A DNA stretch of 64,000 nucleotides from Candidatus Heimdallarchaeota archaeon (GCA_016840095.1 JAEOSZ010000066.1:32001-96000); one strand, 5' to 3'; shown: positions 37,646-55,614, counted from the first letter of the stretch. Notes: generated by a model not told the origin, from the sequence alone. Program-made: numbers and translations.

Positions 37646-38215
37646 ATGGGTGCAGGACAACGGAAAATCTTCAAGATAACCTTACTTGGTGATGGTGCCG
37701 TAGGTAAGACAAGTCTCCGAAAAACCTATCTAGGAGAAGGTTTCAAAGACGGCTATTCCATGACCATAGGTGCAGATTTCGCTGTTAAGCGTTTAAGAAT
37801 TGATGATCAAGATTTTGTTGCACAAATCTGGGATCTTGCAGGCCAACAAAGGTTCTCTGCTGTTCGTGAGGTTTACTATCGAGGAACATCTGGTTGTTTA
37901 TTGGTGTTTGATATTTCAAGGCGTTCTAGTTTTGAGAATATTCCATCGTGGATTGCAGAACTTCTCAAGAACAATAGTAATAGAGTCGTACCAATTGTAT
38001 TGATTGGTAACAAGAGCGATCTTCGTGCTACAGCTAAAGATCCTATTATGCGCGAACAATCAGAAGAATATGCTCGTAACCTCTCTGCTTGGTCAGGATT
38101 TACAGTTCCATATATTGAAACATCTGCAAAAACAGGTGAAAATGTCGATGAGGCATTTAAGACTCTTCTAAAGAACATTGTTTTGTTCTACGAAAAATTA
38201 TATGCACAACAATAA
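37646..38215 (+). CDS. Rab-like small GTPase (Ras superfamily)
   Basis: GDGAVGKT, TIGADF, IWDLAGQQRF, YYRG, NKSD and ETSAK; no C-terminal prenylation Cys. ATG at 37646. Confidence 0.95.
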   Translation: MGAGQRKIFKITLLGDGAVGKTSLRKTYLGEGFKDGYSMTIGADFAVKRLRIDDQDFVAQIWDLAGQQRFSAVREVYYRGTSGCLLVFDISRRSSFENIPSWIAELLKNNSNRVVPIVLIGNKSDLRATAKDPIMREQSEEYARNLSAWSGFTVPYIETSAKTGENVDEAFKTLLKNIVLFYEKLYAQQ

Positions 38216-38241
38216 GGAAATTATTCCTTTTCTTTATTTTA

Positions 38242-39039
38242 TTATTGATTATTAACTCGTATATTCATAGTATCTTCATCAAATTCGGGATGAAGCGAAA
38301 CGGTTCCATCTTCGTTTACATTTAGAATCTTCATCTGCTCTAATTCAGAAATGTACTTTCTTGTTTGAGATAGAGAGACGCCGAGTACAAAAGAAAGTTG
38401 AATTGGGGCTATAACACCCATCCTTCTTAGCAAATTTATAATGTTGAATCTTGGATCAGAAGTGACTATTCTTTCTAGAACACTTTTCTGTTTCATCCAT
38501 TTTTCCATTTCTTTTGTGATTTTCTCCATCTTATCTTCGAGTTCCTTCTTTTCTGCTTCTATAGCAACAATTTGATCAGATAATTCATAAATCAGAGATT
38601 CTCTTTCCTCTAGAAGAAGATTAAGCATATCTTTTTCCCTTTGAAAATCTTCTATAACTCTTGTATCAACACTTCCATTTTCAGAGGAATCACTTGGTTT
38701 CTTCTGAATTTTCCTTCTATCTTGCTGATATGGTGATACCGAAAACATACTTGATAAGAAATTAAAAAGCCTAAAGAATTCTGATTTCATTTCTGAAATT
38801 ATGACTTCTGAAGAATTTTCTAGAAGTTCATTTACATATCGTATTGCAGGATCTAGTTCTAGAGTTGATTCCTGTTTCTTTTTCTTAGTTTTTTCTACTT
38901 TCCCTTCCTTCTTAGGAGCTTTGAGATTTTCTTTTAGTTCTTCAACTTCTTCAGAAAGTTTGGTGATTTCTGATGCTATTTCATGAAATTCGTCTTCTTC
39001 TACAGGTTCTTTCTCTTCGTAATTTTCCATCAAAATCAT
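38242..39039 (-). CDS. Coiled-coil protein with C-terminal winged helix
   Basis: Acidic N-terminus, long heptads, then DPRF.I...L...LSFVLGVSLSQTRKYISELEQM. Confidence 0.7.
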   Translation of the reverse strand: MILMENYEEKEPVEEDEFHEIASEITKLSEEVEELKENLKAPKKEGKVEKTKKKKQESTLELDPAIRYVNELLENSSEVIISEMKSEFFRLFNFLSSMFSVSPYQQDRRKIQKKPSDSSENGSVDTRVIEDFQREKDMLNLLLEERESLIYELSDQIVAIEAEKKELEDKMEKITKEMEKWMKQKSVLERIVTSDPRFNIINLLRRMGVIAPIQLSFVLGVSLSQTRKYISELEQMKILNVNEDGTVSLHPEFDEDTMNIRVNNQ

Positions 39040-39870
39040 CTATATTTTTGCGGTTGATTCTATCTTAAAGCCTTCAATTTCGGATGGAGTAAGATCTAGG
39101 TTTTCGCTTACGAATGCTACACCCATCAATTTGGTAATAGCAAAAGTATCCTTTATTCTACTACCAACAGTGCTTCTTGAGAAGTAGAATATCCCTTGAG
39201 CTGCATTCATAATTATTCTTTCAGCAACAGGATCAAGAACACCTTGTGGTAATAGGAAGAAATGTATGCCACCTATTTTTGTTATGGATGTTATAATTGA
39301 TTTTAGAAAAGTAATCAAATCATTTGAATCTTCGTCTAATCTGTCTTCCTTCATCCATAATAAATCATCAAAAACACTGAAGCATTGTTTCTTTTGATTT
39401 TCTTTAACATGAACCATTCTATCAATAACTCTCTTGACATAAGTTTTTCTTCGTACTTCTATTTTGCCTAGTTTGAGAGAAGAAGTCATTGAAGAACTTG
39501 ATAGATCAAACATATTCTCAAAATACCAATTTTTACCTTCGAAGGGTTTTACATCCCATTCATAAGCTTTGAATGAGTTTAGAACATGACCATAAGGACG
39601 ACTACTATGAACATAAAAAATAACATTTTCACTATTCTGAGCCCAATTAAGAAGGATTCTTTGAATAAACAGTGTTGGTATAACAGTTTCAGAAGGATAA
39701 CTCACCAAAATCAGAGAACCAGAAGGCAATCCTTTTCGTGACGACATTTCCATGCCCAATTTCTGATCAAGTGATCTGATACCAGTTTGAAATAGATCTC
39801 CTCTTTCATCCTTTGATGAATTTGTTTTTCCTATACGATTTATACCCCCAGGTGGTGAGTCCATACCCAT
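39040..39870 (-). CDS. KaiC/RAD55-like RecA-fold protein with degenerate Walker A
   Basis: TGIRSLD..L...GLPSGSLILV start, FDDL at the Walker B position, and ITKLMG...I.GFKIES tail; no GxxGxGK. Confidence 0.75.
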   Translation of the reverse strand: MGMDSPPGGINRIGKTNSSKDERGDLFQTGIRSLDQKLGMEMSSRKGLPSGSLILVSYPSETVIPTLFIQRILLNWAQNSENVIFYVHSSRPYGHVLNSFKAYEWDVKPFEGKNWYFENMFDLSSSSMTSSLKLGKIEVRRKTYVKRVIDRMVHVKENQKKQCFSVFDDLLWMKEDRLDEDSNDLITFLKSIITSITKIGGIHFFLLPQGVLDPVAERIIMNAAQGIFYFSRSTVGSRIKDTFAITKLMGVAFVSENLDLTPSEIEGFKIESTAKI

Positions 39871-39899
39871 TGAACATTCCTCAATTAGTGTTTAATTTG

Positions 39900-40424
39900 C
39901 TAAAATTGCTCCAATTCCCTTAGCGCAAGTTCCAAATCAGATATGAATTCATCTTGAACTTTCTTTTCTTCTTCAACAACAACAGGTTGAGGAGTAACTA
40001 CAGGCTGAACTTCAGGAGCAGGAACAGGTTTTGCTTCAACATCCAGAATATTTCGGATCTTTTCAGCAGCAATTTTCATAGTTCTTCTTACCATTCCAAG
40101 AGCTACTCCTGTATCAGTAATTAAACACAAAACTGTACTTCCGCAACTTGCTACTAAAATTAAACCATCTGAAAATTCAGAGATAATAATATCTAATACA
40201 GCTAATCCAACATTTGTTCCTTGTTGTTCACTAGCTAAATAAACTGCACTTGCTATTGCTCCAAGAGCTTCTGTTTCAAACTCATCGAAAGCAAATCTTG
40301 AAGAGTAAGCTAGTGTTAATCCTGTCTTATCAGCTAATATTACATGATTAATATTAGCATCACTTGTTATAATTTCATGAAGTATTGTATTTATTTGGTC
40401 AGCACCATACAAGCATATCACCAA
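39900..40424 (-). CDS. Roadblock/LC7 (MglB-like) protein with Pro-rich linker and C-terminal helix
   Basis: ILADKTGL, LGAIASAV, I.SEF..G.I and LGMVR..MK; the exact start codon is uncertain. Confidence 0.88.
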   Translation of the reverse strand: MVICLYGADQINTILHEIITSDANINHVILADKTGLTLAYSSRFAFDEFETEALGAIASAVYLASEQQGTNVGLAVLDIIISEFSDGLILVASCGSTVLCLITDTGVALGMVRRTMKIAAEKIRNILDVEAKPVPAPEVQPVVTPQPVVVEEEKKVQDEFISDLELALRELEQF

Positions 40425-41841: not shown

Positions 41842-41911
41842 AGGCGTCCTGCTGTTTTCCTATCATGTGTGTGAAGAGCACATCTAAGCCGTCTCAACCA
41901 GTCATTCGCCT
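41842..41911 (-). ncRNA. Box C/D-like sRNA with non-canonical compensated boxes (two K-turns)
   Basis: Minus strand reads AGGCG a ATGACTG [guide] TAGA TGTG-loop-CACA c ATGATAG [guide] AGGA CGCCT. Each box pair keeps the tandem GA and gains Watson-Crick stem-II pairs. Confidence 0.7.
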
Positions 41912-45859: not shown

Positions 45860-46423
45860 TTGAAAATCGAAGGTTTGTTTCCGGAAATTAATGAAATTAA
45901 GAACGTAGATTTGAGAAGTAAAGTTGAGCATTCTCTTGAAAAAGCAATAAAACAAGGCGGATGGAATGAGCAAGATCTTCATAGAATTCCTTTTACTTTG
46001 CTAATTCCTGATTTGGTTAATGAAGATCTCTCCGTAAAAATCTCAATAATTGAACATATTAGAGTAGTTACACAAATGTGTATAGCTACTTATGAAAAAT
46101 ATGACCAACTTGGTCTTGGAGATAAGTTGAATAGAGACGAACTAATTGCAGGTGGATTATTGCATGATGTTGGCAAATTTATTGAATATGAAAGAGACGA
46201 AAATGGATGCATTATTCAAACAGCAGAAGGCAAATTCATACGTCATCCTGCTATGGGTTTGGAATTAGTTTATGAATTCGATCTTCCATTAATTGTAAGA
46301 CAAGCCATTGTTTTTCATAGTAAAGAAGGCGATAAAATCTCTAGATTAAAAGAAGTGGAGATTATCCATCGTTGTGATTTCTTGTGTTTTGCTCCTATAA
46401 AACAAATATTTGAAGAAAATTGA
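45860..46423 (+). CDS. HD-domain metal-dependent phosphohydrolase
   Basis: IPFTLL, EH...V, LLHDVGK, RHP..G, HS.EG and E..H.CD. Confidence 0.88.
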   Translation: MKIEGLFPEINEIKNVDLRSKVEHSLEKAIKQGGWNEQDLHRIPFTLLIPDLVNEDLSVKISIIEHIRVVTQMCIATYEKYDQLGLGDKLNRDELIAGGLLHDVGKFIEYERDENGCIIQTAEGKFIRHPAMGLELVYEFDLPLIVRQAIVFHSKEGDKISRLKEVEIIHRCDFLCFAPIKQIFEEN

Positions 46424-46441
46424 GGAAAAGGTGTTCACAAA

Positions 46442-47569
46442 GTGAAAAAATACAAAGTTGCAGTTCTACCAGGTGATGGTGTAGGAATTGATGTTACAGA
46501 AGCAGCAATGAAGGTCTTAGAGGCCGTTGGATTCAGTGATATAGCTGAATATACATATGGAGATATTGGTTGGGAATTTTGGTGTAAAGAAGGAAATCCC
46601 TTACCAGATAGAACAATAGATCTCTTGAAGAATTCTGATTGTTGTTTGTTTTCAGCTATAACATCTAAACCAAAAGAAGAAGCTGAGAAAGAATTAATAC
46701 CTGAATTACAAGGGAAGGGATTAATCTACTTCAGTCCTATTGTAAGATTAAGACAGTTGTTTGATCTTTATGTAAATTTACGTCCATGTAAAGCCTATTC
46801 AGGAAATCCTCTAAATTACAGAGATGATATTGATCTTGTAGTTTTTCGTGAAAATACTGAAGGACTCTATGTTGGAATAGAATGGCATCCTGTTCCACAA
46901 GAAGTTATGAAAACAATTGTGGAAAATCACCCAAAGGCAAAAAGGTTTGAGAATGCAAATCTTAATGACATAGCCATTTCTACAAGAATATTCACACGAG
47001 AAGGTGTTCAACGAATCTTAAAAGCCAGCATGGACTATGCTAAAGAATTCAACTATCCAACAGTAACAGTAGTTGAAAAACCAAATGTAATTAGAGAAAC
47101 AAGTGGATTAATGGTTAGAGAAGCAAGAAAACTGATACAAAATTATGACAACATTGATCTCTGGGAAACCAACATAGATGCTATGGCAATGTGGTTGGTA
47201 AAGAATCCTCAAGATTATGGTGTAATGGTAGCTTCAAACATGTTTGGTGATATTATTTCAGACTTAGCTGCTCAACTTATTGGAGGATTAGGGTTTGCTT
47301 GCTCTGGAAACATTGGAGAAAAATTCGCAGTTTTTGAACCAACCCATGGATCAGCACCAAAGTATGTAGGAATGAATAAAGTCAATCCAATCGCACAGAT
47401 TCTTGCTGCAAAAATGATGCTTGATTGGCTAGGTGAAAAAGATATGGCCGAGAAAATCGAGGAGGCTGTTGCTGCAGTAGTCGCTGAAGGTAAATATCGA
47501 ACTTATGATATGGGTGGCAATACTACTACATCAGAAATGGCTGATGCCATCTGCGAAAAAATAGGTTAA
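46442..47569 (+). CDS. Isocitrate/homoisocitrate/isopropylmalate dehydrogenase family enzyme
   Basis: LPGDGVG, LRQ.FDLYVNLRP, RENTEGLY, NMFGDI.SD and FEPTHGSAPKY. Confidence 0.92.
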   Translation: MKKYKVAVLPGDGVGIDVTEAAMKVLEAVGFSDIAEYTYGDIGWEFWCKEGNPLPDRTIDLLKNSDCCLFSAITSKPKEEAEKELIPELQGKGLIYFSPIVRLRQLFDLYVNLRPCKAYSGNPLNYRDDIDLVVFRENTEGLYVGIEWHPVPQEVMKTIVENHPKAKRFENANLNDIAISTRIFTREGVQRILKASMDYAKEFNYPTVTVVEKPNVIRETSGLMVREARKLIQNYDNIDLWETNIDAMAMWLVKNPQDYGVMVASNMFGDIISDLAAQLIGGLGFACSGNIGEKFAVFEPTHGSAPKYVGMNKVNPIAQILAAKMMLDWLGEKDMAEKIEEAVAAVVAEGKYRTYDMGGNTTTSEMADAICEKIG

Positions 47570-47605
47570 AACCAACCTATCCCTTCATTTTTTTGTTTAT
47601 TTTTG
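47561..47605 (+). terminator. Hairpin plus T-rich tract after the dehydrogenase gene (possible internal terminator or processing site)
   Basis: ATAGGTT-aaaacc-AACCTAT followed by T runs. Confidence 0.35.
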
Positions 47606-47661
47606 ATTAAGAACACATTCAAAAAAAATACATAGAGATATCCTTATTACCATCTTTCTAA

Positions 47662-48948
47662 TTGGTGAAATTGAGTGAAATGGCTAGCTTCACACTAATT
47701 GAAAAAATTATTAGAAATCACACAAATGTTTCAGATAATGAGATTTACCCAGGAAATATCGTATGGGTCGATCTAGATTTAGTCACAGCAAGAGATTATG
47801 CTGGACCTCAAGTTATAGATCTTTTTCAAAAACATTATACAGGGAATAAAACATTCAATAACAAGAAAATCATTTTTACTCCAGATTGTTATCCTTATGG
47901 AAATGACCCCAAACATGCCAAAGATCAAGAAAAAATACGTGTTTTTGCAAAAGAACATGATATTGAAGTAACTGATTTAGGATCAGGTATTGGTTCCCAT
48001 CTACTATTTCGAAGAGGATTTTCAAAACCAGGGGATATTGCTATTGGAGCTGATAGTCACTACAATATCTTAGGTGCTTTAGGTATATTAGGTCAAGGGG
48101 CAGGAGATGTTATGCTTGCCTTTGCTATGAAAACAGGAAAATCTTGGATCAAAATACCTGAAACAATAAAAGTAATTCTGAAAGGTGACTACAAATGGCC
48201 AACTACAGCAAAAGATTTAGCTCTCTTTGTTCTCAAAGAACTTCATGAATATGGGATCACTGGAAAAGCTGTAGAATTTTATGGTACCATTATCGATAAG
48301 TTAACAATTGAAGAAAGAGTTACCTTATGTTCTCTTATTACAGAAGCTTCTGGTGTTATCGGATTTATAGCAGCTGATCAAACAACTTCAGATTATTATT
48401 CCGAAATCGGTTTTGATGTTGAGAAGATTTCAGCTGATGTTGATGCAATTTATGCTTCAGAATTGATTATAGACATTCAAGATTTAGGACAATATATAGC
48501 ATGCCCACCTCATCCTCATAATGTTAAAAAAATTGAGGAAGTTGTTGGAACACCAATAAATTCTATTGTTATTGGTTCTTGTACTAATGGTAGTGCAGCT
48601 GATATTCATGAAGCTGCTATTATACTCAAAGGACAAAAAGTCAGCCCAAACGTGAGATTTGGTATTGTTCCTGCTACAAGAGAGGATTTTGTATCAATCA
48701 ATTTAGAGGGAGATATGACTACGATTTTAGAAGCTGGTGGAAATTTCTTTGGAGCTGGATGTTCAACATGTGCAAAGGGTCAATATGGTTTAACTGGGGG
48801 CAAAACAGCTGTAACTTTAACCACAGGCAATAGAAATACTCAAGGTAAAATAGGTCCAGCAGATGTTTACCTTGCAAGCCCTGTTGTAGCAGCTGCAGCT
48901 GCAATAAACGGGAAAATAGTTTCTCCAAAAGAGGTGATTGAAAAATGA
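47662..48948 (+). CDS. Aconitase-family (LeuC/HacA-like) large subunit with variant active site
   Basis: DSH, GSCTNG, CSTC and NRN present; the conserved DH motif reads DC. Confidence 0.88.
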   Translation: MVKLSEMASFTLIEKIIRNHTNVSDNEIYPGNIVWVDLDLVTARDYAGPQVIDLFQKHYTGNKTFNNKKIIFTPDCYPYGNDPKHAKDQEKIRVFAKEHDIEVTDLGSGIGSHLLFRRGFSKPGDIAIGADSHYNILGALGILGQGAGDVMLAFAMKTGKSWIKIPETIKVILKGDYKWPTTAKDLALFVLKELHEYGITGKAVEFYGTIIDKLTIEERVTLCSLITEASGVIGFIAADQTTSDYYSEIGFDVEKISADVDAIYASELIIDIQDLGQYIACPPHPHNVKKIEEVVGTPINSIVIGSCTNGSAADIHEAAIILKGQKVSPNVRFGIVPATREDFVSINLEGDMTTILEAGGNFFGAGCSTCAKGQYGLTGGKTAVTLTTGNRNTQGKIGPADVYLASPVVAAAAAINGKIVSPKEVIEK

Positions 48949-49451
48949 GTGAAGATAAAGTCAAAGCTCAAGCAAAAGTAGTTATGGTTGATGATATTGA
49001 TACTGATCAAATATTTCATCAATCTTTATTAACGATTCACGATCCTGAAGAAATAAAACCACATATTTTTGGTAATTTGAAAGGATATGAAAACTTCGGG
49101 AAAGAAGAGAATACAGGAAAAATACTTTTGGTTGGTAAGAATTTTGGTAAAGGATCGACAAGGCAGCAAGCTGTTACAGGTTTTCTAGCCCATGGAATTA
49201 AAGCTATAATTGGTGAGTCTTTTGGTCCCATTTACTACAGTAATGCTGTAAATTCAGGATTACTTCTGGTTGAAGCTCCAGAAATTTCTCAATTTGATGT
49301 TAAAGAAGATGATGAACTTGAGATAGATATAAATCAATCAAGGATTACAAATTTGAAAAATAATAATAGCATAAAATGTGCTAAAATACCCCAACCAGTT
49401 TTAGATATTATGAAAGCAGGTGGACTTCTAAAACTTGGAGAAAAATTGTAA
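48945..49451 (+). CDS. Aconitase-family (LeuD/HacB-like) small subunit with variant motif
   Basis: DDIDTDQI and NFGKGSTRQQA (canonical GCGSSREHA); ATGA overlap with the large subunit. Confidence 0.88.
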   Translation: MSEDKVKAQAKVVMVDDIDTDQIFHQSLLTIHDPEEIKPHIFGNLKGYENFGKEENTGKILLVGKNFGKGSTRQQAVTGFLAHGIKAIIGESFGPIYYSNAVNSGLLLVEAPEISQFDVKEDDELEIDINQSRITNLKNNNSIKCAKIPQPVLDIMKAGGLLKLGEKL

Positions 49452-49454
49452 TGT

Positions 49455-51314
49455 GTGAGAGAAATGAGTGGAAAAACATTTTCAGAAAAACTTTTTTCTT
49501 TAAAATCAAACAAAGATGTTAATGCAGGTGATATCGTTTATGCTGAACCAGATTTAACCCTATCACATGATAATTCAGCATCAATAGAGAAAACTTTTCA
49601 AAAAATGGGTGGATCAAAAATCAAATATCCGGAGCGATTAGTAATTGTTCTTGATCATGATTCTCCTCCCACAAGTGCTAAAATAGCAAATGATCATAAG
49701 AATATTAGAGAATTAGTTAGAAAACAAAATATCATTAACTTCTATGATGAGGGAAAAGGAATTTGTCACCAGCTAATGTCGAATCATGCAAAACCCAATA
49801 TGCTAGTTGTAGGTTCAGATTCACATACTTGTACAAGTGGAGCATTTTCAACTTTTGCTGCTGGAATTGATAGAACTGAAACAGCAGGATTATGGTTAAC
49901 AGGAAAGACTTGGTTTAGAGTTCCTGAAACTATTAAAGTTGTGTTAAACGGAAAATTACCTCTAGGTGTTTATGCTAAAGATATAGCATTATGGTTAATG
50001 AATAAAGTAGGGGCTTCTGGAGCTACATATTATGCAATAGAGTTTCATGGTGATGGTGTCGAAACTTTGTCAATATCTGAAAGAATGACACTAGCTAATC
50101 TAGCTTCTGAAATGGGTGCAAAAACAGCAATATTCCCACCAGATCAGATCTTAATCAACTGGTTAAAAAACAAGTATGCTTCAATCAAGATAATAGAAAA
50201 TGAACTGATTTGGTCAGACGACGATGCAATATTTCAATCAGAAATTACATTGGATTTGGATAGTCTTGAACCATTAGTTGCTATTCCACATCAAGTAGAC
50301 AATGTTCAATTCGTAAAAAAACTTGAGGAAATAAGTATAGATCAAGTTTTTCTTGGTACTTGTACAAATGCTCGTTTAGACGATCTGGAAATTGCAGCAG
50401 GGATTATTAAAGATAAAAAAGTAAAGGAAGGAGTAGTATTTCTTGTAGCTCCTGCATCAAATAAAGTCTACCTCGAAGCATTAGAAAAAGGTGTAATCAA
50501 AACACTAGTTGAAGCAGGAGCAACTATACTTTCATGCAGTTGTGGTCCTTGTTTAGGAAAAGGTCAAGGGATACCTGCAGATGACTGGATTGTTTTATCT
50601 ACAGCTAATAGGAATTTTCTAGGTAGAATGGGAAATAAAAATGCGAAGATATTCTTAGCTTCTCCCGCTACAATTGCAGCATCTGCAATCGAGGGAAAAA
50701 TCACAGATCCTAGAATCTTCTTGACTTCAGAATCAATAGATTATGAAACTAAAATTAAGTTACAATCCAGAGACGTAGAATCTCAAGTATTTGAAATTAC
50801 TCAACAAGATGACAGGTCGTTTCAGAATATCTGGGATTATAGTGACATAGATGATTTCAATACAGATTTAATGTTTGCTGGTGGTCTTACATATGATATT
50901 AAATCTTCAGATGGAGAAAAGATTGTTCCTCATTTATTCAAGGGTTTAGATGAAAAATTTGCGGATAGAGTTAAAGAAGAAGACATAGTTGTTGGAGGAA
51001 ATAATTTTGGATGCGGTTCATCTAGAGAACATCCTGCTGTAGGTCTTGCTGCAGCTGGTGTGAAAGCTGTTATTGTAAAATCAGTATCCAGAATTTTCTA
51101 TAGATCAGCAATTAACCAAGGATTACCAATAATTGTGCATCAAGAATTTGTTGAAAAATTTGATAGGAATCTACAAACAACTATAGATTTAGAAAATGGA
51201 CAAATTGTCAATGGTAACCAGATTTACACATTTCCAAAACTACCTAATGAATTACTACAAATATTTACAGCTGGAGGACTTATCAAGTATTATAGCAAAA
51301 AATACTCGAAATAG
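49455..51314 (+). CDS. Fused large+small homoaconitase/isopropylmalate-isomerase-like dehydratase
   Basis: LDH, GICHQ, DSHT, GTCTN, CGPC and NRNF.GRMG, followed by a swivel domain with NTD and NFGCGSSREH. Confidence 0.92.
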   Translation: MREMSGKTFSEKLFSLKSNKDVNAGDIVYAEPDLTLSHDNSASIEKTFQKMGGSKIKYPERLVIVLDHDSPPTSAKIANDHKNIRELVRKQNIINFYDEGKGICHQLMSNHAKPNMLVVGSDSHTCTSGAFSTFAAGIDRTETAGLWLTGKTWFRVPETIKVVLNGKLPLGVYAKDIALWLMNKVGASGATYYAIEFHGDGVETLSISERMTLANLASEMGAKTAIFPPDQILINWLKNKYASIKIIENELIWSDDDAIFQSEITLDLDSLEPLVAIPHQVDNVQFVKKLEEISIDQVFLGTCTNARLDDLEIAAGIIKDKKVKEGVVFLVAPASNKVYLEALEKGVIKTLVEAGATILSCSCGPCLGKGQGIPADDWIVLSTANRNFLGRMGNKNAKIFLASPATIAASAIEGKITDPRIFLTSESIDYETKIKLQSRDVESQVFEITQQDDRSFQNIWDYSDIDDFNTDLMFAGGLTYDIKSSDGEKIVPHLFKGLDEKFADRVKEEDIVVGGNNFGCGSSREHPAVGLAAAGVKAVIVKSVSRIFYRSAINQGLPIIVHQEFVEKFDRNLQTTIDLENGQIVNGNQIYTFPKLPNELLQIFTAGGLIKYYSKKYSK

Positions 51315-51324
51315 GGAGATAAAG

Positions 51325-52638
51325 ATGAGATTATATGAACATGAAGCAAAGCAGATTTTTAGTCAGTACGACATTCAAATACCTAAGCAAATAGCAGTTA
51401 TAGAAAAAATAGAGGATTTGGAAGAATTATCTATAGATTTTCCAATCATGATAAAAGCCATGGTTTTGATTGGGGGCAGAGGAAAAGCTGGAGGGATAAA
51501 AAAAGCAGAAACCATTGAAGAAGCTAAACAAATAATCAAAGAGATGCTTGAACTAACTATACATGGTTACCCCATCGAGAAAATTTTACTTGAAAAAACA
51601 GTTACAATTGCAAATGAGATCTATTTAGCCATAACTACTGATCCAGCCACGTTTGATATTGTTTTAGTAACCTCAGCAAAGGGAGGTATTGATATTGAAG
51701 AGGTTGCTAAAACTGAACCTGAAGAGATATTTAAGAAATTCTTGAAGCATAATGAGAAGTCATTGCCCTCTGAGATTGGTAAAGAAGCTGTAGAATTTCT
51801 ATTAAGAAAGAATCAAGAATTAAAATCAGTTACCGAAAAACTACAAAGAACAATAGATCGACTATATTCCGCTTTTCAAGGAGCAGAAGCAAAAATCTGT
51901 GAGATTAACCCACTGATAGTTACCAAAGATAACGAAATAATTGCAGCAGATGCAAAGTTTGTTATTGATGATAACAGTTTGTACAGACAGACTCCTCTGT
52001 TGAAATCTATTGAAATAAATCCTGAAAGCAAAAGGCATGATGTCTCTGAGCAGACACAATATGAAGCTAAAGCATATCAAATTGGTTTTCCTTTTCTTGA
52101 TTTGCTTGCCAATCCTGAGAATTTCAAAAAAGATGAAGAGAAATTATATGTTGGATTAGTTCCTGGAGGAGCTGGTTATGGAATATTTTCCATAGATGAA
52201 ATTGTTAATGTTGGAAATCGGTATTTTGACGGTAAAGTAGTTCCGATTAACTTTATGGATAGTGGTGGTGGTCCCTCTATAAGTAAGGTAGCTGATATGT
52301 TTCATCTCCTAATGGATCATCCAGCTACTGATTTGATTATTACAAGTCGTTTTGGAGGTATATCAAGCTGTGATGTCTTCATTCAGGGATTAATTATGTC
52401 TTTAAGAGATAGATTTATTGCAAAAAAACGTATGATTCCTGTTTTTGGTAGAATGGTTGGAACTGATTTAGCTGCAGCAAAAGCATTTCTAGAAAAAGCT
52501 AAACGTGAAACACCCGATCCATTAGAAGACCTACATATCGTAGTTGGAAATCAAAAAATAATGGCTGATGTCATTAAAGATGGTATTGAGTATGGATTCA
52601 AAGCGAAAAAACAAAACATTGGTTTGGAGGGTGATTAA
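51325..52638 (+). CDS. ATP-grasp acyl-CoA synthetase beta subunit (SucC / citryl-CoA synthetase / ACL-like)
   Basis: MRLYEHEAK after a GGAG SD, GGRGKAGG, GGIDIEEVA, EINPL, ADAK...DDN...RQ, NF.D.GGG and FGGI..CD. Confidence 0.9.
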   Translation: MRLYEHEAKQIFSQYDIQIPKQIAVIEKIEDLEELSIDFPIMIKAMVLIGGRGKAGGIKKAETIEEAKQIIKEMLELTIHGYPIEKILLEKTVTIANEIYLAITTDPATFDIVLVTSAKGGIDIEEVAKTEPEEIFKKFLKHNEKSLPSEIGKEAVEFLLRKNQELKSVTEKLQRTIDRLYSAFQGAEAKICEINPLIVTKDNEIIAADAKFVIDDNSLYRQTPLLKSIEINPESKRHDVSEQTQYEAKAYQIGFPFLDLLANPENFKKDEEKLYVGLVPGGAGYGIFSIDEIVNVGNRYFDGKVVPINFMDSGGGPSISKVADMFHLLMDHPATDLIITSRFGGISSCDVFIQGLIMSLRDRFIAKKRMIPVFGRMVGTDLAAAKAFLEKAKRETPDPLEDLHIVVGNQKIMADVIKDGIEYGFKAKKQNIGLEGD

Positions 52639-54783
52639 ATGGCACAAATAGAAAAACTCGCAGTTGATCAAGGGCTTCTTTATTATTTTATTAAACAAGT
52701 GCGTCCAGAACTTGCACAGAAAATATCAGAACAAAAAACAATTGAAACAATGATTGTAGGGTTAGGAAGACAAGGTACTAGACATGCACAACTCATGATG
52801 GAATATGGAACTAATGTTACATGTGGGTTAGCACCAGGTAGAGGTGGAACTACTGTTCATGAGACAATTCCTGTTTACAATACAGCAAAAGAAGCTTTAC
52901 AAAACCACCCAAATATAGCTGTTGCAAGCATATGGAAACACTATTCCTCAGCTAAAGAAGCAACTATAGAAATTATCCGTGCTGGTATCCCTATAGTTGT
53001 TTTAATCTCAGAATTTATTCCTCTAAAGGATGTTAGAGACATTCTTGTAGAAGCTAGAAAACACAAAACAATCTTATTTGGAGGAAATACTCCAGGAATT
53101 ATATTCCCACCTGAAGGAATAAAGGTCGGTATGCTTCCTGACATCTTTCAAGCTCAAGAAGAAGAAACAAAGATTGGTCCCAAAGGTGTCACAATATTGT
53201 CCAGAAGCGGTGCTATCCTTTACCATTTATCAGATGCTCTTGCTAGTGCTGGTATTGCACAAAATGGAGTACTTGGAGTTGGTGGAGATGGTGCAATAGG
53301 TTCCCGATTTGTAGATTTGGTTTCGAGAATAATGAGTTATGAACACACAGAATTAGTTGTAATTGCAGGTGAGATAGGTGGTATGCAAGAGGAATTACTT
53401 GCAGAAGATATGATCGCACATCCAAAGAATTATCCAAAACCTCTAGTTGCTCTTATTTCAGGAGCTAACGCACCAGTTGGCAAAACTATGGGGCACGCTG
53501 GAGCTGTAATTTCTCCTGGACAAGTTTATGGTACTTACCAATCTAAAAGAGAATCTCTAGAAAAAGCTGGAGTAACAGTTATCAATCACCAAAGAGATCT
53601 AATTGAAGCTGTAAAATCAAAATTGAACAAGACATATTTTGATATTGAAAAATATTATGAAAAAATGAGAAAGAAATGGGATGCCAGACCACCAGTAGAA
53701 ACCTGGGGAACATTAATAACCAATGTGATGCCAAACAACTTGATTATTCGAGGTTATCCATTACAAGAGATAATTGCAAAAAAGGGTCTTCTTGAAACCT
53801 CACATTTGTTGATAAAAGGTGAATTTCCAAATGAAGTTCAACTTAAAGATCTTGAAAACATCGCAAAAGAAGCTATCAAACAAGAACTCAAAGATTATAG
53901 TTCAATTACTATAAGTTCTGATATCTCTAAAAGTCTTGGAACCTTTATGTTATTCGATGAGCAACTAGCTGAATTTGTTATGTCTAATTCTGAAGAAACA
54001 AAAATTGCAGCTTATACCCTAGGAAGGGTTTTGAAATATTTCTCTTGTATTCTTGGAAACTTAGATGATTTAGAGGTTTCTTCAACTATAAATTCATCTT
54101 TCTCAGAGATGATATACAAGGGGTTAACTGGAGAGTCAAATCCTGATTCTGATAAAATTAGATTATTAGAAGCAATGATTACAGCTTGTGTTGATCATGG
54201 TGTCACACCACCATCAGCTCAAACAACCCTAATATTGGCATCAACTAGAGCAAATTACGAGGTGGCAGTAGCAGGTGGTTTACAAGCTATAACTGATGTT
54301 CATGGTGGAGCGGGTCAAAAAGCAGCTAAATTCTTCTTATCAATCATAGATAAATCGGAAAAAGAAAACAAAGAACTTGAAGAATCTACCTTCGAAATGA
54401 TAAAAGAAACCATCAAAACAGGGAAACGAATAGAAGGATTAGGTCACCGTATCCATACAAAAGATCCTAGAAGAGATGTGTTATGGAATCTTGCAGAAAA
54501 AGCAGGATATGCAAAAGGTTGTGTTGAAGTTTCAAAAATGATAAGTTCGGTTTTCCATCGAGTAAGAGGAATGAATCTTCCCATCAATGTGGATGGAGTG
54601 ATTGCTGCAATTACAGCTGATATGGGATTAAATCCAAAATTAGCAAAAGTAATCTTTGTATTAGGTAGAACAGCTGGATTAGCTGCACATTATTTCGAAG
54701 AAGTAAATACTCAACCTCAAATGAGAAGAATAGAATTCAGCAAAGCTACATACAAAGGACAACCTTTTCGAGAAGTTAAATGA
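52639..54783 (+). CDS. SucD-like alpha subunit fused to a citryl-CoA lyase (citrate synthase fold); ATP-citrate-lyase-like
   Basis: GGNTPG, SRSG, GEIGG..E and phospho-His MGHAGA, then DHG..PPS, HGGA, GHR.H..DPR and NVDG. Confidence 0.9.
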   Translation: MAQIEKLAVDQGLLYYFIKQVRPELAQKISEQKTIETMIVGLGRQGTRHAQLMMEYGTNVTCGLAPGRGGTTVHETIPVYNTAKEALQNHPNIAVASIWKHYSSAKEATIEIIRAGIPIVVLISEFIPLKDVRDILVEARKHKTILFGGNTPGIIFPPEGIKVGMLPDIFQAQEEETKIGPKGVTILSRSGAILYHLSDALASAGIAQNGVLGVGGDGAIGSRFVDLVSRIMSYEHTELVVIAGEIGGMQEELLAEDMIAHPKNYPKPLVALISGANAPVGKTMGHAGAVISPGQVYGTYQSKRESLEKAGVTVINHQRDLIEAVKSKLNKTYFDIEKYYEKMRKKWDARPPVETWGTLITNVMPNNLIIRGYPLQEIIAKKGLLETSHLLIKGEFPNEVQLKDLENIAKEAIKQELKDYSSITISSDISKSLGTFMLFDEQLAEFVMSNSEETKIAAYTLGRVLKYFSCILGNLDDLEVSSTINSSFSEMIYKGLTGESNPDSDKIRLLEAMITACVDHGVTPPSAQTTLILASTRANYEVAVAGGLQAITDVHGGAGQKAAKFFLSIIDKSEKENKELEESTFEMIKETIKTGKRIEGLGHRIHTKDPRRDVLWNLAEKAGYAKGCVEVSKMISSVFHRVRGMNLPINVDGVIAAITADMGLNPKLAKVIFVLGRTAGLAAHYFEEVNTQPQMRRIEFSKATYKGQPFREVK

Positions 54784-54792
54784 ATTGTATAA

Positions 54793-55614
54793 ATGGAGAA
54801 AGTGATGAAAGATTTAGTATTTGAGATAATTGGAGACATTCTAATAATCAGAGAAGATACGGATGAAATCTCTTTGAAAGAATTTGCAGAAGAAAAAATC
54901 CAAAAACATCCATTTATCAAATCTGTTTTACTTCAAACTTCTAAAATTCAAGGACAGGAGCGAAAAAGAGATCTAAAATATGTTATGGGGGAGAAAAAAT
55001 CGGAAACAACCCATAAAGAACATGGAAATTCCTTCTTAGTTGATTTATCAGAAGTATTTTTTTCCCCACGTTTGAGCTATGAGAGACAAAGAGTTGCAGA
55101 TTCAGTTGAGAAAAATGAAATAATTCTAAACTTCTTTTCAGGAGTTGGTCCTTTCAGTATTGCTATAGCTTCAAAATGCAAATCATGTGTTATACACAGC
55201 ATTGAAATAAATAAAGCAGCATATGATTATCTTATCAGAAACATCGAATTAAACAAGTGCCAACATGAAGTTATTCCATATCTAGGAGATGCTTTTGATA
55301 TAGTTCCAAAAATGTTTATAGGTAGCGTTAACAGAGTTTTACTTCCTCTACCTTTAGATTCAGACAAGGCCCTTCCAATAGCCCATCAATCATTACAAAA
55401 TGGAAGCGGCATTATTCATTGGCAAATTACTGAGAAAACCAGTTTAAAGAAAATCGACAAGAATATTATAAATAACAGAATCAAAAATATCCCTTATTTT
55501 TCTAACAACTCTATAAATTATGAAATTACTGAATTAAGATTGATAAGATGGTTAGGACCAAAGATAGCACATATTGCCGTAGATTTGAGTTTCATAGCTC
55601 GTGAACACTACTGA
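54793..55614 (+). CDS. Trm5/Tyw2-family tRNA-modifying SAM-dependent transferase
   Basis: FEIIGDI, HKEHG..F.VD...VFFSPRL..ER.R, F.GVGPFSI, EIN and N..LN. Confidence 0.88.
   Translation: MEKVMKDLVFEIIGDILIIREDTDEISLKEFAEEKIQKHPFIKSVLLQTSKIQGQERKRDLKYVMGEKKSETTHKEHGNSFLVDLSEVFFSPRLSYERQRVADSVEKNEIILNFFSGVGPFSIAIASKCKSCVIHSIEINKAAYDYLIRNIELNKCQHEVIPYLGDAFDIVPKMFIGSVNRVLLPLPLDSDKALPIAHQSLQNGSGIIHWQITEKTSLKKIDKNIINNRIKNIPYFSNNSINYEITELRLIRWLGPKIAHIAVDLSFIAREHY

What the first reader, a model, noticed from the sequence alone, without database searches (positions are those of the whole stretch)
45860..54783. Seven-gene tricarboxylate operon: dehydrogenase, two different aconitases, an ACL-like pair and an HD hydrolase
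Seen: a co-oriented, mostly tightly packed run of HD protein, beta-decarboxylating dehydrogenase, split aconitase (large/small), fused aconitase, ATP-grasp beta subunit and SucD-citryl-CoA-lyase fusion. There is no citrate, homocitrate or isopropylmalate synthase in the cluster. Known: these chemistries link 2-oxoacid + CO2 to iso-acid, to tertiary hydroxy-acid, to acyl-CoA + oxoacid. Inference: a self-contained pathway in which the ATP-dependent lyase replaces the synthase. It could be a reductive TCA branch (2-oxoglutarate to citrate to acetyl-CoA + oxaloacetate) or a homolog acting on homocitrate/methylcitrate (e.g. 2-oxoadipate to homocitrate to 2-oxoglutarate + acetyl-CoA in amino-acid fermentation). 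LeuC/HacA-type dehydratases rather than AcnA hint at a non-citrate substrate.
Basis: partly seen in the sequence, partly recalled or inferred. Interest (0 to 1): 0.85.

Follow-up and report, generated by a model that had tools for sequence, protein, structure and literature searches.

The report
Unorthodox citrate-to-oxoglutarate operon, Asgard archaeon
A Heimdall-group (Asgard) archaeon from marine sediment has no ordinary citrate synthase, aconitase or isocitrate dehydrogenase; in their place it carries one seven-gene block of unusual, biochemically untested look-alikes, probably an ATP-linked link between acetyl-CoA plus oxaloacetate and 2-oxoglutarate.

Summary
The seven co-oriented genes are real. 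All seven recur in the same order in 22 related Heimdall loci.

They are not Leu/Lys biosynthesis genes. The cassette holds the genome's only aconitase-, Iso_dh- and citrate-synthase-family genes. Its genus has no LeuA/homocitrate-synthase family gene, and no LysW or DapA was found in 9 genomes. Sister families of the same order carry canonical citrate synthase, AcnA and IDH instead.

The "ACL-like pair" is not a canonical ATP-citrate lyase. It is a separate family in which succinyl-CoA-synthetase-like subunits are fused to a full-length citryl-CoA-lyase/citrate-synthase domain. Catalytic residues are intact.

The dehydrogenase carries the E. coli IDH NADP determinants. One hydratase is canonical LeuCD/HacAB-type. 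The other belongs to a widespread, uncharacterised subfamily that lacks the usual catalytic His.

The HD protein travels with this module across Asgard, Thermoplasmatota, Acetothermia and Aminicenantes.

Best reading (about 0.6): an ATP-coupled citrate ⇌ isocitrate ⇌ 2-oxoglutarate arm. Its direction, and the roles of the HD protein and the second hydratase, are unresolved. A homocitrate reading is disfavoured but not excluded.

This scan has found the same module before in other genomes. The literature already lists "ACL" in Asgard archaea and fused CCS–CCL genes in Planctomycetes.

The parts
45860..46423 (+). HD/HDIG metalloprotein (187 aa). A conserved companion of the module; its role is unknown.
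   Evidence: Pfam HD 40 bits and TIGR00277 HDIG. H66, H102-D103, H129, H153 and D173 are invariant in 39 homologues. The AF2 model has pLDDT 96 but only generic HD-fold matches. Orthologues lie next to module genes in five lineages.
46442..47569 (+). Beta-decarboxylating dehydrogenase (375 aa), predicted NADP-dependent isocitrate dehydrogenase of the HICDH/NAD-IDH-like subfamily.
   Evidence: Iso_dh 300 bits, but below every NCBIfam equivalog cut-off. Best PDB hits are NAD-IDH 6lky and T. thermophilus HICDH. It shares S113, R119, R129, R153, Y160, K230, D283, D307, D311 and the NADP determinants K344, Y345, V351, Y391 with E. coli Icd; Asn115 is Ile. It is the only Iso_dh gene in the genome.
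47680..48948 (+). Large subunit of the 'type B' aconitase-family hydro-lyase (422 aa from the ATG; the ORF opens at TTG 47662).
   Evidence: Aconitase Pfam 220 bits, below the hacA_fam/IPMI_arch cut-offs. The three Cys ligands are kept. The His101 equivalent is Arg (ARD), GICHQ becomes GIGSH, DSHT becomes DSHYN, and NRNFxGR becomes NRNTQGK. The same signature appears in nearly all informative sequences among the 120 best database homologues.
48945..49451 (+). Small subunit of the type B hydro-lyase (168 aa); overlaps the large-subunit gene by 4 nt.
   Evidence: Aconitase_C 60 bits; LEUD_arch 114.6 against cut-off 108.95. It reads GKGSTRQQA where the canonical motif is GCGSSREH, and its specificity loop is FHQSLLT.
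49455..51314 (+). Fused LeuC-LeuD 'type A' hydro-lyase (619 aa) with canonical catalytic motifs; the likely aconitase.
   Evidence: hacA_fam 497 bits (cut-off 385.7), IPMI_arch 498, LEUD_arch 129; below the HacA, LeuC and PRK07229 equivalog cut-offs. Motifs SHD, GICHQ, DSHT, CTN, CGPC, NRNFLGR and GCGSSREH are all present. It is 52%/43% identical to the split LeuC/LeuD of the Aminicenantes cassette.
51325..52638 (+). SucC-like ATP-grasp beta subunit (437 aa) of the citryl-CoA-synthetase-like enzyme ('family X').
   Evidence: ATP-grasp_2 150 bits; ACL-type Citrate_synth_N only 52 bits (cut-off 83); SCS-beta models 239 bits (cut-off 370). Against PDB chains, SCS beta scores 176 bits, CCS large subunit 80, and ACL beta gives no hit. 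Family-specific loops are PGGAGYG, FMDSGGGP and RFGGISSCD. The family forms its own clade beside SCS.
52639..54783 (+). SucD-like alpha subunit fused to a full-length citryl-CoA-lyase/citrate-synthase domain (714 aa).
   Evidence: CoA_binding, Ligase_CoA and Citrate_synt domains, the last covering profile positions 11-352 of 357. The phospho-His motif MGHAGA is present. The C-terminal domain is nearest to H. thermophilus CCL 6hxp (126 bits) and keeps DHG, HGGA, GHRIH, DPR, NVDG and GR. It is the only Citrate_synt gene in the genome.
47570..47661 (+). Longest intergenic gap of the cassette, with T-runs; a possible internal terminator/promoter.
   Evidence: Read directly from the sequence. Not tested.

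Best explanation
The cassette is this lineage's version of the citrate arm of the TCA cycle, built entirely from non-canonical enzymes.

Proposed steps:
- The two-subunit enzyme (SucC-like beta; SucD-like alpha fused to a CCL/citrate-synthase domain) interconverts citrate + ATP + CoA with acetyl-CoA + oxaloacetate + ADP + Pi. The route runs through a phospho-histidine and enzyme-bound citryl-CoA.
- The LeuCD/HacAB-type Fe-S hydro-lyases do the aconitase job. Type A does so for certain. Type B either handles one of the two half-reactions or a side reaction.
- The NADP-type dehydrogenase interconverts isocitrate and 2-oxoglutarate + CO2.
- The HDIG protein is a conserved accessory component of unknown role.

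Shown here: gene content, conservation, catalytic motifs, family placement and phyletic complementarity.

Inferred: the substrates, the division of labour between the two hydratases, and the direction. The direction could be ATP-consuming citrate cleavage, for example from glutamate-derived 2-oxoglutarate, or ATP-conserving citrate synthesis.
For: 1. Sole copies. The genome's only Aconitase, Iso_dh and Citrate_synt family genes lie in the cassette.

2. No biosynthetic context.
- No HMGL-like/LeuA-family gene was found in the genome or in 24 genus relatives.
- No LysW or DapA was found in 9 genus genomes.

3. Complementarity within the order.
- Genus g1 has only the fusion (one ~713-aa hit each), only the two cassette hydratases, and the cassette dehydrogenase (81-91% identity).
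- Families f3/f4 have 370-450-aa citrate synthases, ~900-aa AcnA and distant IDH paralogues, sometimes with CS and IDH adjacent. They mostly lack the cassette.

4. The rest of the cycle is present: SucCD, an SDH/FRD flavoprotein, class I fumarase, seven 2-oxoacid:ferredoxin oxidoreductase alpha-type genes and two GDH genes.

5. Catalytic residues are intact.
- The lyase domain keeps the CCL/CS catalytic and oxaloacetate-binding motifs and is closest to a solved CCL.
- The alpha subunit keeps the phospho-His.

6. The dehydrogenase shares the isocitrate-binding set, Ser113, and the NADP determinants K344/Y345/V351/Y391 with E. coli IDH.

7. Context of relatives of the pair.
- CitF (Loki, Odin), fumarase (Odin), PrpD (Acetothermia) and aconitase ('Euryarchaeota' MAG).
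- An Aminicenantes bacterium has the same set with a separate bona fide CCL (274 bits against cut-off 212). Its dehydrogenase is 63% identical, type A 52%, type B 41% and HD 46%.
Against: - No enzyme of this family has been assayed, and every equivalog model fails.
- The beta subunit's substrate loops are neither ACL-like nor CCS-like, so citrate binding is inferred, not seen.
- Asn115, which in E. coli IDH contacts the gamma-carboxylate, is Ile here.
- The type B hydratase lacks the His101 equivalent, and its need in a plain aconitase step is unexplained.
- In Loki-like family f5 the pair coexists with canonical ACL (19/21 and 10/21 genomes). In G035 it coexists with canonical CS and AcnA. 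The pair is therefore not always a simple replacement.
- The genome is a MAG, 89% complete with 7.8% contamination, so absences are provisional.
Confidence: 0.6

Rival explanations
1. The module works one carbon longer: 2-oxoadipate + CO2 <-> homoisocitrate <-> homocitrate <-> acetyl-CoA + 2-oxoglutarate. That would be a reversed or ATP-linked front end of the alpha-aminoadipate pathway, used for example in lysine catabolism.
For: - The hydratases and the dehydrogenase fall in the HacA/LeuC and HICDH/IPMDH-like subfamilies.
- T. thermophilus HICDH is among the best PDB hits.
- Asn115 of IDH is replaced.
- The pair coexists with canonical citrate enzymes in some genomes.
- An earlier follow-up of this scan favoured this reading (e1-5454108; unchecked).
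Against: - The lyase domain is of the citrate-synthase fold with the oxaloacetate-binding set intact. From established knowledge, known homocitrate synthases belong to the LeuA/DRE-TIM family, which is not found in the genus.
- No LysW was found in 9 genus genomes.
- The small-subunit loops lack the Arg of methanogen HacB 'YLRT' (the motif is recalled from Drevland et al. 2007).
- The dehydrogenase has Val, not the Arg85 of TtHICDH, at the discriminating position.
- The dehydrogenase has NADP-IDH-type coenzyme residues.
- The cassette is complementary to CS/AcnA/IDH, not to any lysine pathway.
Confidence: 0.1
2. Only part of the cassette is the TCA arm: dehydrogenase, type A hydratase and the ligase/lyase. 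The HD protein and the type B hydratase carry out a different, undescribed reaction on a related acid, such as a repair, salvage or branch step, and merely share regulation with the arm.
For: - Type B has a remodelled active site (Arg for the catalytic His).
- Type B forms a broad subfamily that also occurs as a stand-alone large subunit in unrelated bacterial contexts.
- HD orthologues occur next to type B without the ligase nearby (L064, L094).
- HD occurs in 11 Asgard genomes where the pair was not found.
Against: - HD is also directly coupled to the ligase genes, with 4-bp overlaps in Thermoplasmatota and Acetothermia.
- HD is also coupled to the dehydrogenase (window; G265).
- Types A and B are both kept in the Heimdall and the Aminicenantes cassettes. 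This fits two steps of one pathway.
Confidence: 0.17
3. The module handles 2-methylcitrate/propionyl-CoA, or another alkyl-citrate, rather than citrate.
For: - From established knowledge, the citrate-synthase family includes 2-methylcitrate synthases.
- NCBI names relatives 'citrate/2-methylcitrate synthase'.
- A PrpD-family gene follows the pair in Acetothermia.
- Acyl-CoA metabolism genes flank the pair in Loki and Hermod.
Against: - No methylisocitrate lyase lies in or near the cassette.
- A beta-decarboxylating dehydrogenase has no place in the methylcitrate cycle.
- Complementarity with CS/AcnA/IDH points to the ordinary citrate arm.
Confidence: 0.05

Closest known systems
Citryl-CoA synthetase CcsAB plus citryl-CoA lyase Ccl of Hydrogenobacter thermophilus (PDB 6hxq, 6hxp)
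   Same: An SCS-like alpha/beta ligase with a phospho-His, plus a CCL-type lyase. The C-terminal domain's best solved match is Ccl (126 bits). The same two-step chemistry is expected.
   Different: Here the lyase is fused to the alpha subunit and keeps about 85 extra citrate-synthase residues. The ligase subunits score lower against CCS (107 and 80 bits) than against SCS (182 and 176 bits). The lyase domain is below the NCBIfam CCL cut-offs (202 against 245; 200 against 212).
Type I ATP-citrate lyase (Chlorobium AclBA 6hxj, Methanothrix 6hxi, human ACLY); also present in other Asgard families
   Same: The same two-gene architecture (beta ATP-grasp; alpha = CoA-binding + phospho-His + CS-fold lyase) and the same expected overall reaction.
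   Different: - Sequence: alpha scores 103/68 bits against ACL alpha, and there is no PDB ACL-beta hit.
- The ACL ATP-grasp Pfam is below cut-off (52 against 83).
- The loop reads RFGGISSCD where ACL has GGIANFT.
- The family is a separate clade from 6 Asgard AclB sequences.
- Canonical ACL beta was found in 77 of 301 Asgard genomes but in 0 of 28 of this family.
Postulated 'type II ACL' (Magnetococcus Mmc1_3638/3639, tubeworm symbionts) and the Planctomycete CCS/CCL genes with a fused ccsB-ccl form (PMC3522073, PMC6783814, PMC5459899)
   Same: Genes annotated as SCS alpha/beta plus a citrate-synthase-superfamily protein, split or fused, are read there as a third kind of ATP-dependent citrate cleavage.
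   Different: Those sequences could not be fetched, so identity with this family is untested. Those papers do not describe the HD protein, the two LeuCD-type hydratases or the dehydrogenase as partners.
Succinyl-CoA synthetase SucCD
   Same: Nearest solved and modelled relatives of both ligase parts. A normal SucCD also exists in this genome on another contig.
   Different: Only 31-34% identical. Below the SCS cut-offs (239 against 370; 211 against 353). Has family-specific insertions and changed substrate-proximal loops. Fused to a lyase.
Archaeal isopropylmalate isomerase and homoaconitase (M. jannaschii LeuCD 4kp1/4nqy, HacAB 4kp2)
   Same: Best solved matches of the hydratases. Type A passes the hacA_fam and IPMI_arch subfamily cut-offs.
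   Different: No LeuA/homocitrate synthase partner exists in the genus. Type A is a fusion. Type B has Arg for the catalytic His and other changes. Neither passes an equivalog model.
E. coli NADP-isocitrate dehydrogenase Icd and T. thermophilus homoisocitrate dehydrogenase
   Same: 35% identity to Icd, with the substrate, metal and NADP residues shared. 219 bits to TtHICDH.
   Different: Ile at Asn115. An extra 20-30-residue insertion (about residues 148-175). A shorter, IPMDH-like chain. Below all equivalog cut-offs.

Membership tests
Type I ATP-citrate lyase (AclA/AclB) | Beta subunit with the ACL-type ATP-grasp/citrate-binding domain (Pfam PF24948; GGIANFT loop) | tested here: not met
   PF24948 scores 51.7 bits against cut-off 83. 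The loop reads RFGGISSCD. Identity to Asgard AclB is 27%, and only over the ATP-grasp half. The family forms a separate clade.
Type I ATP-citrate lyase (AclA/AclB) | Alpha subunit = CoA-binding + phospho-His ligase domain + C-terminal CS-fold lyase | tested here: met
   Domain order; MGHAGA; catalytic H/H/D of the lyase.
Type I ATP-citrate lyase (AclA/AclB) | ATP- and CoA-dependent cleavage of citrate to acetyl-CoA + oxaloacetate | not testable with these tools
   Needs an enzyme assay.
CCS/CCL two-enzyme system | Stand-alone citryl-CoA lyase of about 260 aa passing the CCL models | tested here: not met
   The lyase is fused, about 355 aa long, and scores 202/200 bits against cut-offs 245/212. 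The Aminicenantes counterpart does pass (274 against 212).
CCS/CCL two-enzyme system | SCS-like heterodimeric ligase with a phospho-His, next to the lyase | tested here: met
Succinyl-CoA synthetase | Passes the SucC/SucD family models; loops NGAGLA and FGGI(V/T)RCD | tested here: not met
   Scores are 239 against 370 and 211 against 353. The loops read PGGAGYG and FGGISSCD.
Aconitase (AcnA/AcnB/mitochondrial) | Single chain of 750-900 aa passing the aconitase equivalog models | tested here: not met
   Best AcnA-type scores are 80-140 bits against cut-offs of 686-945.
LeuC/HacA archaeal subfamily (TIGR01343, TIGR02086) | Passes the subfamily cut-off; three Cys ligands; HD, IHQ, DSHT, NRNFxGR motifs | tested here: met
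   Met for type A (497/498 bits; motifs). Type B fails (324/324 bits against 385.7/410; His replaced by Arg and the other changes).
Leu or Lys (AAA) biosynthetic enzyme set | Partner 2-oxoacid:acetyl-CoA condensing enzyme of the LeuA/HCS family in the genome | tested here: not met
   PF00682 was not found in G000 or in 24 genus relatives. LysW was not found in 9 genomes.
Isocitrate dehydrogenase (NADP) | Isocitrate/metal ligands plus NADP determinants K344, Y345, V351, Y391, R395 and gamma-carboxylate contacts S113, N115 (E. coli numbering) | tested here: inconclusive
   All substrate/metal ligands, S113, K344, Y345, V351 and Y391 are present. N115 is Ile, and there is no R395 equivalent. All IDH equivalog models are below cut-off.
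HD-domain phosphohydrolase (HDIG) | H...HD...H...H...D metal ligands and the HD fold | tested here: met
   The substrate is unknown.

The most novel reading that the evidence does not exclude
The cassette is a complete alternative 'citrate arm' that arose independently of CS/ACL, AcnA and classical IDH. In it, an SCS-derived citryl-CoA ligase/lyase conserves or spends ATP. A His-less aconitase subfamily (type B) and an HDIG metalloprotein are obligatory components that catalyse or control a step no one has described. Candidates are a separate half-reaction of the citrate/isocitrate isomerisation, or a phospho-dependent control of the ligase or the dehydrogenase. In energy-starved sediment archaea the arm may run as an ATP-yielding citrate synthase.
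Probability: 0.2. Interest if true: 0.8.

Novelty: new variant of a known kind. Interest (0 to 1): 0.55.

Why it matters
Asgard metabolic reconstructions, and arguments about the origin of the eukaryotic TCA cycle and ACLY, rest on automatic labels such as 'ACL', 'homoaconitase' and 'isopropylmalate dehydrogenase'. In this Heimdall genus those labels hide what is probably the whole citrate arm of the cycle.

The 'ACL' here is a different family from the canonical ACL found in other Asgard lineages. Knowing whether it cleaves citrate at the cost of ATP or makes citrate while gaining ATP would change the predicted energy and carbon budget of abundant sediment archaea.

The two uncharacterised partners, the type B hydratase and the HDIG protein, are widespread in uncultured anaerobes. 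They are easy targets for enzymology.

Tried and rejected
- RNA evidence for co-transcription: no RNA holder was listed. Only marine-sediment DNA runs hold the stretch.
- HD function by structure: the model is very confident, but the only matches are generic HD folds (YhaM, PF0395-like, HDDC2, PgpH, YqeK). The Atlas gave only 'HD domain-containing protein' clusters.
- Complex prediction was not run. I do not claim that HD binds a partner, and a pass would not have been decisive.
- 'Type II ACL' and Planctomycete sequences could not be obtained, so their identity with this family is untested.
- The first tree run with the mixture model was killed. The quick LG+G4 tree has long branches and few SCS/CCS references, so the placement beside SCS is provisional.
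- LeuC-like genes of sister family f3, which looked like type B by their Pfam hit pattern, turned out to be nearer type A / ordinary LeuCD.
- Contexts of bacterial stand-alone type B genes were uninformative.
- CitF and haem-copper oxidase subunit I were not found in this genome.
- Leucine or lysine biosynthesis as the cassette's role was rejected.

Full report
**What is there**

Between 45860 and 54783 the + strand carries seven ORFs. Pfam and NCBIfam read them as follows:
- an HD/HDIG protein;
- an Iso_dh-family dehydrogenase;
- a split LeuC/LeuD-like pair;
- a fused LeuC-LeuD protein;
- a SucC-like ATP-grasp subunit;
- a 714-aa protein that joins SucD-like CoA-binding and ligase domains to a nearly full-length citrate-synthase-family domain.

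Two starts need correction. The SucC-like gene begins at the ATG at 51325, behind a GGAG-type site, not at 51196. The LeuC-like gene probably begins at the ATG at 47680. Gaps are 18, 92, -4, 3, 10 and 0 nt. The 92-nt gap after the dehydrogenase contains T-runs and may split the block into two transcripts.

The neighbours are unrelated housekeeping genes: aIF2-gamma and a PIN protein upstream, and a Taw21/Trm5b-like methyltransferase 9 nt downstream. The window lies on contig C49 of a 3.44-Mb Asgard (Heimdall-group) MAG from marine sediment, 89% complete and 7.8% contaminated.

**Conservation**

All seven genes occur in the same order in 22 Heimdall loci from species-representative genomes, and three more loci are cut by contig ends. 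Three loci have different flanks, so this is more than general synteny. Two other genera of the family keep the block (L072, L073). Pieces of it recur far away:
- A different Asgard class has HD-LeuC-LeuD and DH-SucC-SucD/CCL about 4 kb apart (L064).
- A Loki-like complete genome has an HD-DH pair (L092).
- Thermoplasmatota and Acetothermia have HD-SucC-SucD/CCL with 4-bp overlaps. In Acetothermia a PrpD-family dehydratase follows.
- A 'Euryarchaeota' MAG has HD-SucC-SucD/CCL-aconitase.
- In Loki and Odin the pair sits beside CitF, and in Odin also beside class I fumarase.

The most telling case is an Aminicenantes bacterium. Its gene order is SucC-like, SucD-like, a separate CCL that passes the NCBIfam CCL cut-offs, HD, LeuC, LeuD, dehydrogenase, and a second aconitase-family gene. 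Identities to the window are:
- dehydrogenase: 63%;
- LeuC/LeuD against the fused type A gene: 52%/43%;
- second hydratase against the split gene: 41%;
- HD: 46%;
- ligase and lyase: only 30-37%.

So the same accessory set is attached to two different citrate-activating systems.

**Not Leu/Lys biosynthesis, but the citrate arm**

- In this genome the cassette holds the only Aconitase, Iso_dh and Citrate_synt family genes.
- No HMGL-like (LeuA/homocitrate/citramalate synthase) gene was found here or in 24 genomes of the genus.
- Neither LysW nor DapA was found in nine genus genomes.
- Within the order there is a clean complementarity. Genus g1 has one ~713-aa citrate-synthase-family hit per genome (the fusion), only the two cassette hydratases, and the cassette dehydrogenase at 81-91% identity.
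- Families f3 and f4 have ordinary 370-450-aa citrate synthases, ~900-aa AcnA-type aconitases and distant IDH paralogues, in two cases with CS and IDH adjacent. They mostly lack the cassette. One f3 genome (G035) has both sets.
- The rest of the cycle is encoded elsewhere: SucCD, an SDH/FRD flavoprotein, class I fumarase, several 2-oxoacid:ferredoxin oxidoreductases and two glutamate dehydrogenases.
- No haem-copper oxidase and no CitF were found.

**The ligase/lyase**

- The alpha subunit has the phospho-histidine motif MGHAGA.
- Its C-terminal domain keeps the citrate-synthase/CCL catalytic set: DHG, HGGA, GHRIH...DPR, NVDG and GR.
- That domain is closest to the solved H. thermophilus citryl-CoA lyase (126 bits). 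Citrate synthases score 45-64 bits and the ACL lyase module 41-44 bits.
- Both ligase parts score far better against SCS (182 and 176 bits) than against CCS (107 and 80) or ACL (103 for alpha; no hit for beta).
- The ACL-specific ATP-grasp Pfam stays under its cut-off.
- Members of the family from Asgard, Thermoplasmatota and Acetothermia are 53-69% identical to each other. They are only 31-32% identical to SCS beta, 29% to the Aminicenantes CCS-like beta and 27% to Asgard AclB.
- A quick ML tree puts them in one clade (SH-aLRT 100) beside three SCS sequences (92) and away from six canonical Asgard AclB sequences. This comes with long-branch caveats.
- The family has its own substrate-proximal loops. 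PGGAGYG replaces NGAGLA of SCS and AGGGAS of ACL. RFGGISSCD replaces FGGITRCD and GGIANFT.
- Canonical ACL beta occurs in 77 of 301 sampled Asgard genomes but in none of the 28 of this family. In the Loki-like family f5 both systems coexist.

The literature already reports 'ACL' in Asgard archaea (PMC11976288; bioRxiv 2022.10.25.513756; bioRxiv 385732). It also reports a postulated type II ACL and Planctomycete SCS-like/CCL genes with a fused form (PMC3522073, PMC6783814, PMC5459899). None of these systems is reported there as assayed as a purified enzyme. I could not fetch those sequences to test whether they are the same family.

**The dehydrogenase**

It falls below every equivalog model. 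Its best solved relatives are an NAD-IDH and T. thermophilus HICDH. Aligned with E. coli Icd (35% identity), it shares:
- all substrate and metal ligands, and Ser113;
- the NADP determinants K344, Y345, V351 and Y391, in a motif HGSAPKYVGxNKVNP that is almost that of Icd.

HICDH and NAD-IDH read APDIAG at that motif. Asn115 is Ile, and the Arg85 that marks TtHICDH is Val. The coenzyme site therefore looks IDH-like and the substrate site is ambiguous.

**The two hydratases**

- Type A (the fused gene) has every canonical LeuC/aconitase motif and passes the hacA_fam/IPMI_arch subfamily cut-offs.
- Type B (the split gene) keeps the three cluster cysteines, the catalytic Ser and the Arg of the small subunit. 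It has Arg in place of the His101 equivalent (ARD), GIG(S/T)H for GICHQ, DSHxN for DSHT and NRNxxGK for NRNFxGR.
- This is not a decaying copy. Among the 120 best database homologues, nearly every sequence in which these motif regions could be read carries the same signature. They come from Heimdall, Kari, Hod, Thor and Borr archaea and from Firmicutes, Acidobacteria, Anaerolineae and Riflebacteria.
- In some bacteria the type B large subunit stands alone in unrelated contexts.
- Heimdall and Aminicenantes both keep types A and B. This suggests that both are needed, perhaps one for each half-reaction. From established knowledge, that division is known for homocitrate in fungi and Thermus. Here it is inference.

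**The HD protein**

- It is a compact HDIG protein with invariant H, HD, H, H and D ligands.
- The model is very confident (pLDDT 96) but matches only generic HD folds.
- Its gene neighbours change between lineages: the dehydrogenase, type B, the ligase, or CCL and type A. It stays with the module in every case.
- In the sample of 301 Asgard genomes, 37 have both HD and the pair, 5 have only the pair, 11 have only HD and 248 have neither. Both are confined to the same five or six families. These genomes are related, so this is not a statistical test.
- Its function is unknown.

**Verdict**

- The suggestion of a non-citrate substrate is not favoured. It is not excluded either, because nothing in this family has been assayed.
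- Direction is open. The genus appears to be a Leu/Lys auxotroph with two GDH genes and no oxidase found. This would fit either reductive use of glutamate-derived 2-oxoglutarate or an ATP-conserving citrate synthesis.
- This scan has met the same module before in other genomes (e1-1480610, e1-1420468, e1-5454108, e1-1361306). My results agree with the first two and argue against the homocitrate reading of the third.

Noticed in passing
window 54793-55614 (+): A Taw21/Trm5b-like tRNA methyltransferase gene follows the cassette after only 9 nt. It stays there in most Heimdall loci and may be co-transcribed, although it is functionally unrelated.
   Followed up: partly
L078:3653-5236 (Aminicenantes): The CCS-like beta subunit is 527 aa and ends in a Cys-rich tail with two CxxCxxxC-type motifs, i.e. 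a ferredoxin-like Fe-S domain fused to an ATP-grasp CoA ligase.
   Followed up: no
L029:12160-13701 (Loki) and L074:4889-6427 (Odin): A CitF-family citrate CoA-transferase gene lies beside the ligase/lyase pair, without citD or citE in view. CitF together with the CCL domain could form an ATP-independent citrate lyase. CitF together with the ligase could form an acetate-forming, ATP-yielding CoA-transfer cycle.
   Followed up: no
L064:13851-15341, L079:7763-9043, L080:4648-6024: PLP-dependent enzyme genes (PALP or Beta_elim_lyase) lie next to HD orthologues in three unrelated lineages.
   Followed up: no
G000 and genus g1 (whole genomes): No LeuA-family gene was found in G000 and 24 genus relatives, and no LysW or DapA in the 9 genus genomes searched. 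The genus looks auxotrophic for leucine and lysine.
   Followed up: partly
L081 and L082 (Asgard family f25), first ~1470 bases: Canonical AclB genes in this family are preceded by an ORF of at least 489 aa, cut by the locus end, whose sequence looks aconitase-like by eye. If so, the canonical ACL keeps canonical company.
   Followed up: no
L090:9001-10251, L091:9001-10236, L079:11399-12661: Type B hydratase large subunits occur in bacteria as single genes with no LeuD-like gene nearby.
   Followed up: partly
window 41842-41911, 37646-40424, 33767-36031: Other first-reader notes on this window were listed by the scan index: a C/D-like sRNA, a Rab-like GTPase with a roadblock operon, and a long TrmB-like protein. 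I did not examine them.
   Followed up: no
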